DNA of 43,812 nt from Nanobdellota archaeon (GCA_018831025.1 JAHJRB010000059.1:1-43812); one strand, 5' to 3'. Positions 40,827 through 43,812 are shown, counted from the stretch's first letter. Notes: generated by a model not told the origin, from the letters alone. Numbers and translations: made by a program.

Positions 40827-40871
40827 ATGGGAGTTAAATTAACTGGATTTATATTATGTATATTCTATTAG
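40827..40871 (+). pseudogene. possible remnant of a fen1 5' end
   Basis: atgggagttaaattaactgga... encodes MGVKLTGF...* (stop after 14 codons). Compare the fen1 start atgggtgttaaactgccagga = MGVKLPGI at 41227. The match is short, so chance cannot be excluded. Confidence 0.35.
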
Positions 40872-40911
40872 AATAATATTTAAATACTATAAAATCTTAT
40901 AAAATAATACT

Positions 40912-41046
40912 ATGAAAGAAGAATTTTTAAGAACGATTATAAGAAATGGTGGAAGTTTGGCAATCAATATCCCGAAGGAGATTAAGCAGTTATTAAAGGT
41001 AAAAGAAGGAGAGATTGTTAGAGTTGTTATCGAGAAAAGGAAATGA
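40912..41046 (+). CDS. AbrB/SpoVT (MazE-like) swapped-hairpin DNA-binding protein
   Basis: 44-aa ORF not in the track: MKEEFLRTIIRNGGSLAINIPKEIKQLLKVKEGEIVRVVIEKRK. GGSLAINIPKEI...VKEGE.V is the classical AbrB-type antitoxin pattern. It shares an ATGA overlap with the next ORF. TATA TTTAAATA lies about 30 nt upstream. Confidence 0.6.
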   Translation: MKEEFLRTIIRNGGSLAINIPKEIKQLLKVKEGEIVRVVIEKRK

Positions 41047-41237
41047 AAATTCAAACTAACTGGAATATGAACTTAGAGAAAACTCTGGAATTACATAAAG
41101 AAGTAGTTTTTCTATCTAAAAGATTTAGAAACTGTTTTGATTGGAGAATTCTTTTACATCCTATAGGAGGTTTTTCTTTAAATAAAGTTATCGAAAAATT
41201 ACCAAACGTTATACAGGAGATAAAAAATGGGTGTTAA
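41043..41237 (+). CDS. 64-aa hypothetical protein, translationally coupled to the AbrB-like gene
   Basis: MKIQTNWNMNLEKTLELHKEVVFLSKRFRNCFDWRILLHPIGGFSLNKVIEKLPNVIQEIKNGC. No known motif. It overlaps the fen1 start by 11 nt. Confidence 0.4.
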   Translation: MKIQTNWNMNLEKTLELHKEVVFLSKRFRNCFDWRILLHPIGGFSLNKVIEKLPNVIQEIKNGC

Positions 41238-42243
41238 ACTGCCAGGAATATTACCTGTGAAAACAATTTCATGGGAAGAATTAAAAGGGAAGAAGATTGG
41301 GATAGATTTTAGTAATTGTGCATATCAATTCTTAAGTTCTATAAGACAGAGAGATGGAACGCCGCTTATGGATTCTAAAGGTAGAGTAACCTCTCATTTA
41401 TCAGGTTTATTCTATAGATCCTCTAATTTAATACAAAAAGGATTGAAATTATGTTATATTTTTGATGGAAAGCCACCTTCTTTAAAGATTGTAACACAAG
41501 AAGAAAGAGAGCATAGGAAAAGGATAGCAGAAACAAGATTAGAGAAAGCTAGAGAGGAAGAAGATATAGAGGCTATGGGAAAATATAGTAAGCAGACTAC
41601 TAGAATGAGTAAAGAGATTGTTAAAGAAAGTAAGGAATTATTAAAAGCTATGGGGATTCCGATTATACAAAGTCCTAGTGAATCAGATGCACAGGGTTCT
41701 TTTATGGTTGAAAATGGAGATCTAGATTATTTTGCTTCTAGCGATCAAGATTGTTTATTGCATAATTGTCCTAGATTAATTCCCAATTTAACTTTATCTC
41801 AAACCAGGAAAGTTGGAGGAAGTTATGTTTATATTCAACCCCAAATTATTGAATTAGAAGATGTGCTTAATCATTTAGGGATAGATAGAGATAGATTAAT
41901 TGTTATGGGAATCCTCACGGGAACGGACTATAATCCAAAAGGAATTCCTGGGATTGGTCCAAAGAAAGCTCTTAATTTAGTTAAACAATTTAAGAAATTT
42001 GATACTTTATTCAAAAATGTTGAAGCTGATTTTAACTGGAAAAAGATTTATGCTATTTTTAAATCAATGCCTGTAATGAAAGAATATCAACTTAAATGGG
42101 ATAATGTAAATGAAAGTAAAATTAGAAAACTGCTTATTAAAGAACATGAATTTGGTGAAGAAAGAGTTGAGAAAGTTTTAGAAAAGTTAAAGAAAAAAGA
42201 TAAAAAGAAAGAACAGAAAGGATTGGGGGATTTTATAAAATAG
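41227..42243 (+). CDS. fen: flap endonuclease 1 (FEN1)
   Basis: 338 aa. XPG-N (MGVKL...IDFSNCAYQFL), XPG-I (SESDAQGSFM...SSDQDCLL), H3TH (GTDYNPKGIPGIGPKKA) and C-terminal PIP box QKGLGDFI. Confidence 0.9.
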   Translation: MGVKLPGILPVKTISWEELKGKKIGIDFSNCAYQFLSSIRQRDGTPLMDSKGRVTSHLSGLFYRSSNLIQKGLKLCYIFDGKPPSLKIVTQEEREHRKRIAETRLEKAREEEDIEAMGKYSKQTTRMSKEIVKESKELLKAMGIPIIQSPSESDAQGSFMVENGDLDYFASSDQDCLLHNCPRLIPNLTLSQTRKVGGSYVYIQPQIIELEDVLNHLGIDRDRLIVMGILTGTDYNPKGIPGIGPKKALNLVKQFKKFDTLFKNVEADFNWKKIYAIFKSMPVMKEYQLKWDNVNESKIRKLLIKEHEFGEERVEKVLEKLKKKDKKKEQKGLGDFIK

Positions 42244-42320
42244 GGCTAAGTCAAGTTATCTGTGTTAGCTAACATTAGTAGGGCTCAGGAATTTGGAATT
42301 TAGCTATCTGGAGGCTTGGG

Positions 42321-42326
42321 TTTTTT
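42321..42326 (+). terminator. oligo-T tract downstream of fen1
   Basis: GGGTTTTTTC follows a GC-richer stretch containing the inverted repeat TAGCTAA...TTAGCTA (42267-42306). This is archaeal-type T-run termination; the assignment is inference only. Confidence 0.3.
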
Positions 42327-42396
42327 CAAAACACAATTAAGTTGACTGTACCTAAAATAGAAAAGTTTAAATAGTATAATTTTAATTAGTATAACT

Positions 42397-43725
42397 ATGA
42401 TTATACAATTTAAGAACAGAAAAAAAGAAATTAAAGAAATTAAAGATGTTCTTAACTCAAGAAATTTTGAGTTCTTAATAGTGTATGGAAGAAGAAGGAT
42501 AGGAAAAACAGAGTTAATTTTGAATGCGACAAAAAATTCTAAGAGAATATATTATTTAGCTACTGGAGAGAATAATTTAACGAGATTTTATAATGTTGCT
42601 TCTAAATATGATCCGAATGTTATTAAATTAAAAAAAGATTGGGAAATTTTATTTGATTATTTAAAGGATAAAACAGATGTCATAATATTGGATGAATTTC
42701 AAAATCTGATTAAAGAAGATAAAAATATTTTACATCTATTTCAATCTATAGTTGATATTATCCTTAAAAAATCTAATATGAAGTTAATATTGCTTGGTTC
42801 TTCTGTTTCTATGATGACTTCCAAAGTTTTAAGCTATCAAAGCCCCTTGTATGGGAGAAAAACAGAATCTATGAATCTAAAAGCTATTTCCTTTTTTGAC
42901 TTACATGATTTTTTCCCTTCTATGAATATTAAAAAATTAGTAGAAGTCTATGGTTTTTCCGATGGAATTCCTTTTTATCTAAATAAAATTTGTGATGAAT
43001 TTTGGAAATGGTTGGAAAATGAGATAAAAAAAGAGAGCGTTTTTTTAAAGGATGAAGTTGATTTTTTGATGAGATATGAGTTTGAAGATGTTGGCACTTA
43101 TAAATTAATTTTAGAAGCTATTGCTAATGGCCATAGCAAACTTAATAATATTAAAAATTTTATAAAAGTTGAAAGAACAGATATTAGTCCTTATCTTAGA
43201 AATCTTATAGAAGTTGATTTTATCGAAAGAAAGGTTCCTGTTACAGAAAATATTAAATCAAGAGAGGGAAGATATTATCTCTCTGATAATTTTTTGAAAT
43301 TTTGGTTTAGATTTATTTATCCTAATTTAAGTTCTTTAGAAGAAGGCATTTTAAATACAAATACTATAAAAAAAGAATATAATGCTTATTTAGGAAAAAT
43401 ATTTGAGGAAATTGTTAAAGAATTTGTTATTAAAAGTAAATTTTTTAAATTTGATAAGATAGGAGGATGGTGGCATAAAGATAAAGAAATCGATTTAATT
43501 GCTTTAAATGGTGATAAAGAAATTTTATTTGTAGAATGTAAATGGAAAGATAATGTAAATGTTATAAAGATTTTAAAAAATTTAAAAGAAAAAACAAAAT
43601 ATGTTGAGTGGCATAATAATAAAAGGGAGGAATATTTTTGTATTGTTGCTAAAAGTTTTAAAAGAAAAATAAAAGAAAAAAATTTGTATTTGTTTGATTT
43701 GAAAGATTTTGAAAAAAAGTTTTGA
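42397..43725 (+). CDS. Arch_ATPase-type P-loop ATPase with C-terminal DUF234
   Basis: 442 aa. Walker A YGRRRIGKTEL, Walker B VIILDEFQ, and C-terminal EIDLIALNGDKEILFVECKW (PD-(D/E)xK-like DUF234 module). Confidence 0.8.
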   Translation: MIIQFKNRKKEIKEIKDVLNSRNFEFLIVYGRRRIGKTELILNATKNSKRIYYLATGENNLTRFYNVASKYDPNVIKLKKDWEILFDYLKDKTDVIILDEFQNLIKEDKNILHLFQSIVDIILKKSNMKLILLGSSVSMMTSKVLSYQSPLYGRKTESMNLKAISFFDLHDFFPSMNIKKLVEVYGFSDGIPFYLNKICDEFWKWLENEIKKESVFLKDEVDFLMRYEFEDVGTYKLILEAIANGHSKLNNIKNFIKVERTDISPYLRNLIEVDFIERKVPVTENIKSREGRYYLSDNFLKFWFRFIYPNLSSLEEGILNTNTIKKEYNAYLGKIFEEIVKEFVIKSKFFKFDKIGGWWHKDKEIDLIALNGDKEILFVECKWKDNVNVIKILKNLKEKTKYVEWHNNKREEYFCIVAKSFKRKIKEKNLYLFDLKDFEKKF

Positions 43726-43739
43726 AGAGAAAGTGATTT

Positions 43740-43810
43740 GGGAAAGTTTTAGAAAAGTTAAAGAAAAAAGATAAAGGTAAGGAGCAAAAAGGATTGGGAG
43801 ATTTTATTTA
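43740..43810 (+). pseudogene. detached copy of the fen1 3' end (PIP-box coding remnant)
   Basis: ...GKVLEKLKKKDKGKEQKGLGDFI* versus the fen1 tail EKVLEKLKKKDKKKEQKGLGDFIK*. 34 nt are identical (42171-42204 = 43742-43775), then about 25/33 match. An in-frame TGA lies immediately upstream (43734-43736). Confidence 0.6.
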
Positions 43811-43812
43811 AC

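What the first reader, a model, noticed from the sequence alone, without database searches (positions are those of the whole stretch)
40827..43812. fen1 is bracketed by degenerate copies of its own 5' and 3' ends, with foreign cassettes in between
What the sequence shows:
- 400 nt upstream of fen1, a short ORF starts atgggagttaaattaactgga (MGVKLTGF, stop after 14 codons). It mimics the fen1 start atgggtgttaaactgccagga (MGVKLPGI). The AbrB-like gene and the 64-aa gene lie between the two.
- Downstream, the last ~23 codons of fen1, including the PIP box (QKGLGDFI), are repeated at 43740-43810. 34 nt are identical and about 88% match over 67 nt.
- The repeat is separated from fen1 by 1.5 kb that contains a GC-richer inverted-repeat region (42244-42330) and an Arch_ATPase/DUF234 gene.

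Inference, with two candidate explanations: insertions regenerated the target gene ends, as integrating elements that carry a copy of their target do; or an incoming fen1-containing segment landed inside the resident fen1, of which only the termini survive. No integrase is visible, and the window ends inside the second repeat.
Basis: partly seen in the sequence, partly recalled or inferred. Interest (0 to 1): 0.65.

Follow-up and report, generated by a model that had tools for sequence, protein, structure and literature searches.

The report
Displaced fen1 gene ends flanking imported cassettes
In this tiny-genome archaeon, foreign gene cassettes were recombined into both ends of the essential flap-endonuclease gene, leaving short dead stubs of the original gene ends, and the same scar pattern recurs in several related lineages, so this gene is a repeated landing site for selfish or defence genes.

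Summary
Both repeats are real. The 3' repeat is 73 nt with 64/73 identical. The 5' "mimic" is the genuine displaced start of the resident fen1: it matches the real fen1 start of the closest relative (L006) 23/23, plus that gene's promoter.

The two stubs come from separate events, and fen1 itself is a mosaic.
- **fen1 mosaic:** nt 1-799 are foreign (about 30% divergent from L006). nt 800-1014 are resident-like (about 10%, the same as the flank).
- **5' event:** the foreign part arrived with an AbrB-like gene and a 64-codon relic of a 529-aa nuclease-fold gene. That gene always sits in front of fen1 in relatives.
- **3' event:** a DUF234 ATPase/nuclease cassette (defence candidate PDC-S27) sits at the fen1 stop codon, and the old PIP-box tail lies behind it.

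The 3' architecture recurs in five other lineages with different cassettes. 5' stubs occur in two others. A Nog1-type GTPase gene elsewhere shows the same pattern. No integrase was found.

Best reading: gene-end displacement by recombination anchored in fen1, like Rhs or T6SS tip displacement, possibly started by nucleases. It is a new variant of a known kind.

The parts
40474..40517 (+). First copy of the 9-nt direct repeat ATATCGGTA (40474-40482), followed by a degenerate copy of the fen1 promoter. Left edge of a 304-nt segment that is absent in relatives.
   Evidence: L006 and L007 go straight from ...ATATCGGTA into the fen1 promoter. Local alignment of 40472-40527 with 40785-40837.
40518..40781 (+). 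87-aa small membrane-protein ORF, lying in the segment that L006 and L007 lack. This is a third, separate indel at the fen1 5' side.
   Evidence: Weak similarity to the 75-aa ORF upstream of fen1 in L012 (tblastn E 2.6e-4).
40785..40826 (+). Resident fen1 promoter and leader. It begins with the second ATATCGGTA copy and no longer drives a gene.
   Evidence: Window 40786-40849 matches L006 333-396 at 57/64.
40827..40849 (+). 5' stub: the first 23 nt of the displaced resident fen1 (MGVKLTG type). The frame then runs into cassette DNA and stops at 40871.
   Evidence: 23/23 identical to the real fen1 start of L006. Homology stops at 40850. Stubs also occur in L017/L092 (13 nt) and L132-L135 (about 33-54 nt).
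40850..41226 (+). Imported 5' cassette. It holds the AbrB promoter (TATA-like TTTAAATA at 40879-40886), the 44-aa AbrB/MazE-like ORF (40912-41046), and the 64-aa ORF (41043-41237). The 64-aa ORF is an in-frame internal-deletion relic of a 529-aa nuclease-fold gene.
   Evidence: 74-75% nt identity to L035 4034-4354 and to L017/L092. PF04014. The 64-aa ORF aligns to the N-terminal ~52 and C-terminal ~12 residues of the P0241 family. The C-terminal half of P0241 has a PD-(D/E)XK-like fold.
41227..42025 (+). Foreign 5' part of the working fen1 (nt 1 to about 799; MGVKLPG type), co-imported with the 5' cassette.
   Evidence: 29.7% divergent from L006 against 9.9% after the breakpoint. Maximum chi-square at nt 799, Fisher p = 3e-10. 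XPG_N and XPG_I domains.
42026..42236 (+). Resident-like 3' part of the working fen1. It includes repeat copy 1 (42164-42236, PIP-box tail).
   Evidence: About 90% identity to L006, the same as the PD-(D/E)XK-gene flank at 90.9%. Repeat.
42237..42243 (+). Start of the 3' cassette: the last base of the Ile codon, the extra Lys codon and the new stop (…ATA AAA TAG). Cassette-free relatives end …ATT TAA.
   Evidence: The same 'extra residues plus new stop' occurs in L007 (IK*) and L012 (TKYSI*), while their stubs keep the ancestral ending.
42244..42330 (+). Spacer with an imperfect hairpin ending in GGGTTTTTTC. Possibly a fen1 terminator. Function not established.
   Evidence: Fold z = -1.06. 39% GC. 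No Rfam or tRNA hit. Not conserved elsewhere.
42366..42394 (+). The ATPase gene's own promoter and leader, TTTAAATAGTATAA…ATTAGTATAA. It is conserved upstream of homologous ATPases in unrelated contexts.
   Evidence: Alignment with L120 and L126. blastn hits to L120-L131.
42397..43725 (+). 442-aa AAA ATPase (ATPase_2 + DUF234, with a C-terminal PD-(D/E)XK-type motif). It is the cargo of the 3' cassette and matches phage-defence candidate PDC-S27.
   Evidence: Pfam. PADLOC PDC-S27 E 4.8e-41. Homologues at 60-70% identity occur in several archaeal phyla and in other contexts.
43721..43811 (+). 3' stub (copy 2): the displaced last ~25-30 codons of a resident-type fen1, with PIP box QKGLGDFI and the ancestral stop TAA at 43809-43811. 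It has no start codon and is out of frame with the ATPase.
   Evidence: The ending …GATTTTATTTAA is identical to the L006 fen1 ending.

Best explanation
**Main claim.** fen1 in this Woesearchaeota-like DPANN archaeon is a recombination hotspot. Foreign cassettes were imported using fen1 itself as the homology anchor. The resident gene ends were pushed aside as dead stubs. I call this gene-end displacement.

**Shown**
1. The ancestor had an L006-like locus: PD-(D/E)XK gene, then promoter, then an MGVKLTG-type fen1.
2. On the 5' side, a foreign block replaced resident nt 24 to about 799. The block carries the AbrB gene, an endonuclease-fold gene and fen1 nt 1 to about 799. One junction lies inside fen1 homology (about window 42025). 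The other is non-homologous (40850). It leaves the promoter plus a 23-nt stub. The endonuclease-fold gene has since decayed to 64 codons.
3. Separately, a DUF234 ATPase cassette with its own promoter sits exactly at the fen1 stop codon. The old ~75-90-nt PIP-box tail lies behind it.
4. Both architectures recur in other lineages with other cargo.

**Inferred**
- Each event was a one-ended homologous recombination plus an illegitimate or microhomology join. This is homology-facilitated illegitimate recombination, or repair of a double-strand break from a foreign template.
- Survivors are those in which the incoming DNA restores an intact fen1.
- Once made, a stub also gives the cassette a second fen1-homologous arm. 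The cassette can then move between fen1 alleles, or be lost, by ordinary homologous recombination.
For: **Resident identity of the stubs**
- The 5' stub plus promoter matches L006 at 57/64, with 23/23 in the coding part.
- The 3' stub ends exactly like the L006 fen1.

**Mosaic fen1**
- There is a sharp breakpoint at nt 799: 29.7% versus 9.9% divergence, p = 3e-10, with flank divergence of 9.1%.
- An independent assembly (L003) spans the breakpoint, the cassette and the stub.

**Second natural experiment**
- L007 and L011 are identical over the 2 kb beyond fen1 (nt 1001-3000 from its start).
- L011 has a 2-kb insertion ending in an AbrB gene directly upstream of fen1. Its fen1 nt 1 to about 560 are only about 70% identical to L007.

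**5' cassette family**
- AbrB44 plus a 528-544-aa PD-(D/E)XK-fold protein precedes fen1 in the three full-length members looked up. The AbrB gene is seen where the contig reaches that far. The fourth hit (P0244, a 317-aa fragment with no contig on record) has no context.
- In L017/L092 a LAGLIDADG gene takes the nuclease's place.
- The recipient-side junction differs between lineages: +23, +13, about +33 to +54, or inside the promoter.

**3' architecture in five more lineages, with unrelated cargo**
- Cargo is a DUF4143 ATPase (L007 group and L012) or nucleotidyltransferase modules (L033, L108, L115).
- Stubs are 40, 63, about 90 and about 95 nt long.
- Empty-site relatives exist: L045 for L033 and L102 for L108.

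**Same pattern at another gene**
- In L138 a Nog1-type GTPase gene is followed by an ATPase cassette, a 540-nt stub at 75% identity, a MazE-PIN cassette, and a 100-nt stub at 96%.

**No recombinase**
- No integrase or transposase domain is found in the cassettes or the window.

**Published precedent**
- The mechanism and the scar pattern are described for Rhs and T6SS loci (PMC5361080).
Against: - Among 301 ORFs of at least 200 aa in the same loci, only fen1 genes carry a downstream copy of their own 3' end. Purely generic illegitimate recombination would not be so gene-specific. The sample is centred on fen1, however, and L138 and L126 show that other genes can be hit.
- Four of six 3' stubs begin within about 10 nt of the same H-[D/E]-F codon.
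- Two stubs are 100% identical to the working copy (L007, 63 nt; L115, 40 nt). Both points look more site-specific or more recent than random joins would predict.
- I could not show a co-converted tract on the 3' side of the window's fen1.
- I could not decide which of copy 1 and copy 2 is resident. Copy 1 matches L006 at 89.6% and copy 2 at 89.1%.
- No donor lineage was found. Nothing is more than 77% identical to this fen1.
- Flanks were limited to 6 kb, so large elements with integrases downstream of fen1 would have been missed.
Confidence: 0.6

Rival explanations
1. Site-specific integration. The 3' cassettes (and perhaps the 5' ones) are small integrative elements or satellites. Their attachment site is a copy of the fen1 tail. 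An integrase encoded elsewhere, on a helper element or virus, recombines them. The direct repeats are attL and attR, and the element-borne copy regenerates the gene end.
For: - All six 3' cassettes begin within 1-3 nt of the fen1 stop codon. The working gene gets an element-derived ending, and the stub keeps the ancestral one.
- Four stub starts cluster at the same codon.
- There are perfect 63-nt and 40-nt repeats in L007 and L115.
- The effect is specific to fen1 among neighbouring genes.
- L007 and L012 cassettes are homologous from the first base after fen1.
- In the window, copy 1 is L006-like on its left and copy 2 on its right end. That is what a crossover inside the repeat would give (few informative sites).
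Against: - No integrase or recombinase is found in any cassette or in the 43.8-kb window.
- Cargo and cassette ends are unrelated between lineages, and no shared terminal motif was seen.
- Repeat length varies from 40 to about 100 nt. It reaches 540 nt at 75% identity in the analogous GTPase locus.
- This model cannot explain the 560-800-nt foreign fen1 tracts next to the 5' cassettes.
- No related sequence was found in viral contigs.
Confidence: 0.2
2. Assembly artefact. The stubs and the mosaic are chimeric joins between co-occurring strains in a metagenome assembly.
For: - The window is the end of a MEGAHIT contig. Two assemblies stop at exactly the same base, 1 nt after the stub's stop.
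- The Logan k=31 contig begins and ends inside the 34-nt exact repeat.
- The 5' junction at 40850 is covered by a single contig only.
Against: - Three assemblies from different pipelines share copy 1, the cassette and copy 2. The JGI contig also spans the nt-799 breakpoint and differs by one SNP.
- A 73-nt repeat at 88% identity cannot mislead a k=141 graph.
- Equivalent stubs occur in unrelated samples and MAGs: L007/L010/L011/L088, L012, L017/L092, L033, L072/L108, L115 and L132-L135.
Confidence: 0.03
3. Purely internal duplication. Slippage or unequal crossing-over within one genome duplicated the fen1 ends, and unrelated genes later drifted in. No foreign fen1 DNA is involved.
For: - Direct repeats of a gene's own ends are what local duplication gives.
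- L133 and L135 show a 24-nt tandem duplication of the 5' stub.
Against: - The stubs are of a different allelic type from the working gene ends (MGVKLTG versus MGVKLPG; …FI* versus …FIK*). They match the relative L006 better than the window's own gene does at the 5' end.
- fen1 nt 1-799 are about 30% divergent from the closest relative, while the flanks are about 9% divergent.
- The AbrB cassette is homologous to cassettes of other lineages.
Confidence: 0.05

Closest known systems
C-terminal displacement in Rhs/CDI loci and sequential displacement of T6SS effector-immunity modules (homology-facilitated illegitimate recombination; Kirchberger et al. 2017, PMC5361080; Jackson et al. 2009 as cited there)
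   Same: - A conserved gene body serves as the homology anchor.
- Incoming DNA brings a new gene end plus cargo.
- The old end is pushed downstream and kept as an orphan stub.
- Repeated events give arrays, as in L138 (gene, cassette, stub, cassette, stub).
- No integrase is involved.
   Different: - Here the anchor is an essential single-copy replication gene in archaea, not a polymorphic toxin.
- The displaced piece has no function of its own, whereas orphan toxin tips and immunity genes do.
- Displacement occurs at both the 5' and the 3' end.
- The cargo is defence-candidate, toxin-antitoxin-like or nuclease genes.
Free-standing homing endonuclease genes of T4-like phages (seg and mob genes; for example mobE, PMC2790892) with co-conversion of flanking markers
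   Same: - A nuclease-type gene sits immediately beside a conserved essential gene. Here it is LAGLIDADG in L017/L092/L095 and a PD-(D/E)XK-fold protein in the P0241 family.
- Close relatives differ by presence or absence of the cassette.
- A tract of the neighbouring gene is replaced together with the cassette: 560 nt in L011 and 800 nt in the window.
- The nuclease gene decays after fixation, as in the window's 64-codon relic.
   Different: - No cleavage activity or target site is known here.
- The setting is a cellular archaeal chromosome.
- One flank is repaired non-homologously, leaving a stub of the target gene.
- An AbrB-like gene is always coupled to the nuclease.
- The nucleotidyltransferase cassettes at the 3' end encode no DNA nuclease.
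Integrative elements that carry a copy of the 3' end of their target gene (tRNA-gene or protein-gene integrating plasmids and viruses; casposons at the aEF-2 3' end). Comparison from my own knowledge.
   Same: - Direct repeats made of the target gene's 3' end.
- The gene is regenerated.
- The displaced partial copy lies at the far end.
- Empty sites exist in relatives.
   Different: - No integrase or Cas1.
- No terminal inverted repeats.
- Elements of only 1.1-2.4 kb with unrelated cargo.
- Variable repeat length.
Defence-gene hotspots between conserved core genes (defence islands). [quoted passage not shown]
   Same: The cargo at the fen1 3' end matches PADLOC candidates PDC-S27, PDC-S01 and PDC-S09. 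Cargo differs between lineages at the same site.
   Different: - The hotspot is defined at nucleotide level, at the stop codon of one gene.
- It is marked by stubs of that gene.
- The defence role of these candidates is untested.

Membership tests
FEN1 / flap endonuclease (the working gene, 41227-42243) | XPG_N and XPG_I nuclease domains, a helix-hairpin-helix region, and a C-terminal PIP box | tested here: met
   PF00752 E 1.6e-14, PF00867 E 4.4e-20, HhH hits. QKGLGDFI tail. 5371 homologues with E <= 1e-20, named flap endonuclease-1 by their sources.
Integrase-mediated integrative element (att duplication) | Direct repeats of the target flank the insert, and the target gene is regenerated | tested here: met
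Integrase-mediated integrative element (att duplication) | A tyrosine or serine recombinase is encoded in the element (or demonstrably available) | tested here: not met
   No recombinase domain in the cassette ORFs of the window, L007, L012, L033 or L115. None in any window ORF of at least 100 aa. A trans-acting enzyme elsewhere in the genome cannot be excluded.
Integrase-mediated integrative element (att duplication) | Constant attachment-site extent within an element family; an excised circular form | tested here: inconclusive
   Stub starts cluster in 4 of 6 cases. They differ between the two related DUF4143 cassettes, 63 nt against about 95 nt. Circular forms cannot be tested without reads.
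Homology-facilitated illegitimate recombination / gene-end displacement (Rhs-like) | One junction lies inside homology with a switch of allelic type. The other junction is non-homologous. | tested here: met
   5' side: breakpoint at fen1 nt 799, and an abrupt loss of homology at 40850. The same holds for L011 against L007. 3' side: only the non-homologous junction is seen.
Homology-facilitated illegitimate recombination / gene-end displacement (Rhs-like) | The displaced resident end is retained as an orphan stub, with variable length between independent events and arrays after repeated events | tested here: met
   Stubs of 13, 23 and about 33-54 nt at the 5' end. Stubs of 40, 63 and about 90-100 nt at the 3' end. 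A two-stub array sits at a GTPase gene in L138.
Free-standing homing endonuclease | An intact endonuclease gene lies next to its target gene | tested here: not met
   In the window only a 64-codon in-frame deletion relic remains. Intact genes exist in relatives: LAGLIDADG_3 E 1.1e-4 in L017, and the P0241 family with Foldseek hits to PD-(D/E)XK nucleases at E about 1e-3.
Free-standing homing endonuclease | Co-conversion of the flanking target gene, and presence/absence polymorphism among close relatives | tested here: met
Free-standing homing endonuclease | Site-specific cleavage of the cassette-free allele | not testable with these tools
   This needs biochemistry. One hint: the stub-cassette junction is the only variable spot in the locus upstream of the HAD-hydrolase gene between L132 and L134.
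Integron gene cassette | An IntI integrase and attC recombination sites at the cassette ends | tested here: not met
   No integrase. No conserved imperfect inverted repeat at the cassette ends.
Transposon / casposon | Terminal inverted repeats, a short fixed target-site duplication, and a transposase or Cas1 | tested here: not met
   No terminal inverted repeats at 42237 and 43734. The duplications are 40-100 nt and variable. There is no transposase or Cas1 domain.

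The most novel reading that the evidence does not exclude
fen1 is the dedicated target of a guild of selfish cassettes in DPANN archaea.

**5' end.** An AbrB-like protein is paired with an endonuclease. 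The endonuclease is either a new PD-(D/E)XK-fold family known from only four proteins, or a LAGLIDADG enzyme. The endonuclease cuts the conserved start of cassette-free fen1 alleles. The cassette is then copied in by break repair, dragging hundreds of bases of foreign fen1 with it.

**3' end.** ATPase-nuclease (PDC-S01 and PDC-S27) and nucleotidyltransferase modules use the PIP-box tail in the same way.

**Role of the stubs.** The stubs are not just scars. They act as a portable second homology arm, so both flanks of the cassette are fen1 sequence. That lets a non-spliceable cassette 'home' into any fen1, whatever its neighbours. This would be an intron- and intein-free form of homing in a cellular chromosome.
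Probability: 0.3. Interest if true: 0.8.

Novelty: new variant of a known kind. Interest (0 to 1): 0.62.

Why it matters
- An essential, single-copy replication gene can be a mosaic of alleles about 30% apart. Accessory and defence-candidate genes in genome-reduced archaea can be traded at a nucleotide-precise site without any integrase.
- The stubs are a simple, searchable signature: a copy of a gene's own first or last 15-100 nt a kilobase or two away. It could be used to map such hotspots and to date gene flow in uncultivated DPANN lineages.
- The work points to a small, uncharacterised nuclease-fold family that is strictly linked to fen1. It also points to PDC-S01 and PDC-S27 ATPase-nucleases as possible agents of their own spread.
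- fen1 is sometimes used as a marker gene. Its 5' and 3' parts can have different histories.

Tried and rejected
- **RNA genes.** Scans of the whole window for tRNA/tmRNA and Rfam families found nothing, so the 42244-42330 'inverted repeat' is not a known RNA. Its fold is not better than shuffles on either strand, and it is not conserved in any fetched locus. I dropped the idea that it is an attC-like or structured element. A 9-nt motif (GCTAAGTCA) shared with the L115 cassette start also occurs elsewhere by chance.
- **Viral origin.** Neither the ATPase nor FEN1 has relatives in the viral contig collection.
- **Extending past 43812.** The exact-protein look-ups returned only contigs that end at or before the same base.
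- **Deciding which of copy 1 and copy 2 is resident.** A site-by-site comparison with L006 is ambiguous: 6 sites favour copy 1, and 2 sites plus the stop context favour copy 2.
- **PIP-box fusion by read-through.** The idea was that the ATPase ORF is fused to the PIP-box stub. It is in frame only in L007, and out of frame in the window and L012.
- **fen1 linkage of the DUF234 ATPase family.** Homologues sit in many other contexts.
- **Immunity signature.** I looked for a consistent sequence signature in the fen1 starts next to cassettes and found none.
- **Pfam, NCBIfam and PADLOC** gave nothing for the 529-aa family or for L011's 492-aa protein. Only the structure comparison and a weak profile match (E 0.0037) link them to nucleases.

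Full report
**Setting**

The window is the last 43.8 kb of a 46.9-kb MEGAHIT contig (ERZ27247117 k141_503145). Position 43812 is the contig end. The sequence is 29% GC.

It carries core archaeal genes: ribosomal proteins, SRP54, an SRP54-type GTPase, eRF1-type release factor, a class I tRNA synthetase, and intein-containing PolB and CDC48. No integrase or transposase domain appears in any ORF of at least 100 aa. The closest named FEN1 relatives are from Woesearchaeota and Nanoarchaeota MAGs.

Yes, for both repeats.

- **3' repeat.** It is 73 nt with 64 identical bases and a 34-nt exact core (42164-42236 against 43735-43807). Nothing else in the window comes close. Copy 2 reads …KVLEKLKKKDKGKEQKGLGDFI and stops at TAA 43809-43811. 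It is preceded directly by the ATPase stop codon. It is therefore a dead tail, not the end of a second gene.
- **5' mimic.** Against the window's own fen1 start it scores only 16/21. It is still the only such 21-mer in the window, with 0.08 expected. Comparison with relatives settles the matter. In L006, the closest relative of the flanking DNA, the PD-(D/E)XK-gene region is 90.9% identical. There the real fen1 begins ATGGGAGTTAAATTAACTGGATT, which is 23/23 identical to window 40827-40849. The 41 nt before it also match, giving 57/64 overall. Homology stops abruptly at 40850.
- **Other assemblies.** A JGI contig and a Logan contig carry the same copy 1, cassette and copy 2, with one SNP between them.

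**What lies between: the 5' side**

FEN1 relatives fall into two N-terminal types, MGVKLPGILPVK and MGVKLTGLLPKK. The working gene is the first type. The stub and L006 are the second.

Along the gene, identity to L006 is 60-75% up to about nt 795 and about 90% afterwards. A maximum chi-square scan puts the break at nt 799 (window 42025): 29.7% against 9.9% divergence, Fisher p = 3e-10. The flank is 9.1% divergent. So the first ~800 nt of fen1 are foreign, and the last ~215 nt are resident-like. The JGI contig spans this break.

The 377 nt between the stub and fen1 are homologous to DNA that precedes fen1 in other lineages (74-75% nt identity). In those lineages a 44-aa AbrB/MazE-like gene is followed by a large gene whose end overlaps the fen1 start.

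- **L035.** The large gene encodes a 529-aa protein. Its family has only four members among 5.8 billion proteins. In the three full-length members whose contexts I looked up, it sits directly in front of fen1. An AbrB gene and the PD-(D/E)XK gene lie upstream wherever the contig reaches that far. The fourth hit is a fragment with no contig on record.
- **The window.** Its 64-aa ORF aligns to the first ~52 and last ~12 residues of this family. It is an in-frame deletion relic.
- **Fold.** An AlphaFold model of the 529-aa protein is confident only in its C-terminal half (pLDDT 80-95). Its best PDB matches are all PD-(D/E)XK nucleases, including Can2/Card1, R.BspD6I, Mus81 and SgrAI. The scores are weak (E about 1e-3).
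- **L017/L092 and L095.** A LAGLIDADG-type gene fills the same slot.

**A second natural experiment**

L007 and L011 show no difference over nt 1001-3000 from the fen1 start. L011 has a 2-kb insertion ending in an AbrB gene directly upstream of fen1. Its fen1 nt 1 to about 560 are only about 70% identical to L007. Cassette plus a co-replaced piece of fen1 is therefore a repeated outcome.

5' stubs also recur:

- L017/L092 have 13 nt (ATGGGAGTTAAAT).
- L132-L135 have about 33-54 nt, tandemly doubled in L133 and L135.
- L035 has only part of the promoter.

The junction on the recipient side thus varies, while the other side always runs into fen1.

**What lies between: the 3' side**

The 442-aa ATPase has ATPase_2 and DUF234 domains and matches PADLOC candidate PDC-S27 (E 4.8e-41). 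It has its own promoter, which is conserved upstream of homologues in unrelated contexts. Homologues at 60-70% identity occur in Woesearchaeota, Aenigmarchaeota, Thermoproteota and Methanosarcinaceae. DUF234 and DUF4143 are classed with PD-(D/E)XK nucleases (PMC3424549).

The cassette starts at the stop codon. The working gene ends …ATA AAA TAG (IK*). The stub and L006 end …ATT TAA (I*).

Scanning every fetched locus for a downstream copy of its own fen1 tail found five more lineages:

| Lineage | Repeat | Cargo |
|---|---|---|
| L007/L010/L011/L088 | 63 nt, 100% | DUF4143 ATPase (PDC-S01) |
| L012 | about 95 nt, 89% | DUF4143 ATPase, 44% identical to L007's |
| L033 | 85-94 nt, 92% | nucleotidyltransferase modules |
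| L072/L108 | 94 nt, 92.5% | nucleotidyltransferase modules |
| L115 | 40 nt, 100% | nucleotidyltransferase module |

L045 and L102 serve as empty-site comparators. In each filled case the stub keeps the ancestral ending and the working gene gets a new one.

Among 47 dereplicated lineages with at least 2.5 kb of downstream sequence, 4 are filled. L012 and the window are additional. Among 301 long ORFs in the same loci, only fen1 genes show the feature.

**Mechanism**

Integrase-mediated att integration fits the 3' geometry. It also fits the clustering of four stub starts at one codon. Several results argue against it:

- No recombinase was found.
- The cargo and cassette ends are unrelated between lineages.
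- Repeat length varies.
- The long foreign fen1 tracts on the 5' side are left unexplained.

One locus found through an ATPase homologue is telling. In L138 a Nog1-type GTPase gene is followed by an ATPase cassette, a 540-nt stub at 75% identity, a MazE-PIN cassette, and a 100-nt stub at 96%. L126 has a duplicated 5' end of another gene around an ATPase. This is the pattern of Rhs C-terminal displacement and T6SS effector displacement. Those have been attributed to homology-facilitated illegitimate recombination (PMC5361080).

I therefore favour recombination anchored in fen1 with a non-homologous second join. Selection keeps only products with an intact fen1.

Whether the initiating break is made by cassette nucleases is not shown. 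Three observations hint at such homing:

- the nuclease genes are always adjacent to fen1;
- the neighbouring fen1 sequence is co-converted;
- the stub junction is a local variable spot between L132 and L134.

**What remains open**

- The sequence beyond 43812 is unknown.
- It is unclear why two assemblies stop at the same base.
- I could not tell which 3' copy is resident.
- The donor lineage was not found.
- Larger, integrase-bearing elements may also use the site, because flanks were limited to 6 kb.

Noticed in passing
window 25641-26438 (-): A free-standing 265-aa LAGLIDADG-type ORF (PF14528 E 1.2e-7) lies between core genes. Its NCBIfam hits are to the intein portions of various intein-containing proteins. 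This genome also has LAGLIDADG inteins in PolB and CDC48.
   Followed up: partly
window 29492-33436 (+) and 34362-38279 (+): CDC48-type AAA ATPase and family-B DNA polymerase each carry an intein with a LAGLIDADG domain (precomputed Pfam hits). Three replication or proteostasis genes in a row, counting fen1, host selfish elements.
   Followed up: no
window 40474-40793: A 304-nt segment with an 87-aa membrane ORF is absent in L006 and L007. It is bounded by the 9-nt direct repeat ATATCGGTA plus a degenerate second copy of the fen1 promoter. The same ATATCGGTAA is the left junction of the 2-kb insertion in L011.
   Followed up: partly
window 43812; L003 1955: The ENA MEGAHIT contig and an independent JGI contig end at exactly the same base, 1 nt after the stub's stop codon. 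The Logan k=31 contig starts and ends inside the 34-nt exact repeat. This suggests a graph branch (population heterogeneity or a further repeat) right at the insertion site.
   Followed up: partly
L133 and L135, upstream of the AbrB gene (L135 about 381-470): The 5' fen1 stub is tandemly duplicated (24-nt unit, MGVKLSSI-MGVKLSSI…). Between L132 and L134 the stub-cassette junction is one of only two variable patches in 5 kb.
   Followed up: partly
L132 2729-3742: The working fen1 next to the P0243 nuclease-fold gene has an unusual N-terminus (MGINIWELLPKK), while its stub is MGVKLSGIINK. This could be target-site divergence.
   Followed up: no
L138 1-5470; L137: At a Nog1-type GTPase gene, two cassettes alternate with two 3' stubs of the GTPase gene (540 nt at 75% identity, and 100 nt at 96%). 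The cassettes are a DUF234 ATPase with small ORFs, and MazE-PIN. L138 and L137 are 99.97% identical up to a point inside the GTPase gene and then diverge.
   Followed up: partly
L126 2548-2748 and 6794-7199: The promoter plus about the first 140 nt of a 213-aa gene are duplicated 4.2-4.45 kb apart (about 80% identity). They flank a PKD-domain gene and a DUF234 ATPase.
   Followed up: no
L007 2573-2641: The DUF4143 ATPase ORF is in frame with the PIP-box stub and separated from it only by its TAA stop (…WLLE*ILDKLKKKDKNKGQKGLGEFI*). This is not so in the window or in L012, so it is probably coincidence.
   Followed up: yes
window 42366-42394; L120 4961-4998; L126 4965-4998: DUF234 ATPase genes at only 68-70% protein identity share a nearly identical promoter and leader with two TAGTATAA repeats. 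This may be an operator for the protein's own winged-helix domain.
   Followed up: partly
one search hit table: Many close homologues of the DUF234 ATPase sit on contigs of only 1.4-2.5 kb, barely longer than the gene. This is expected if the gene is commonly bounded by repeats or is multi-copy.
   Followed up: no
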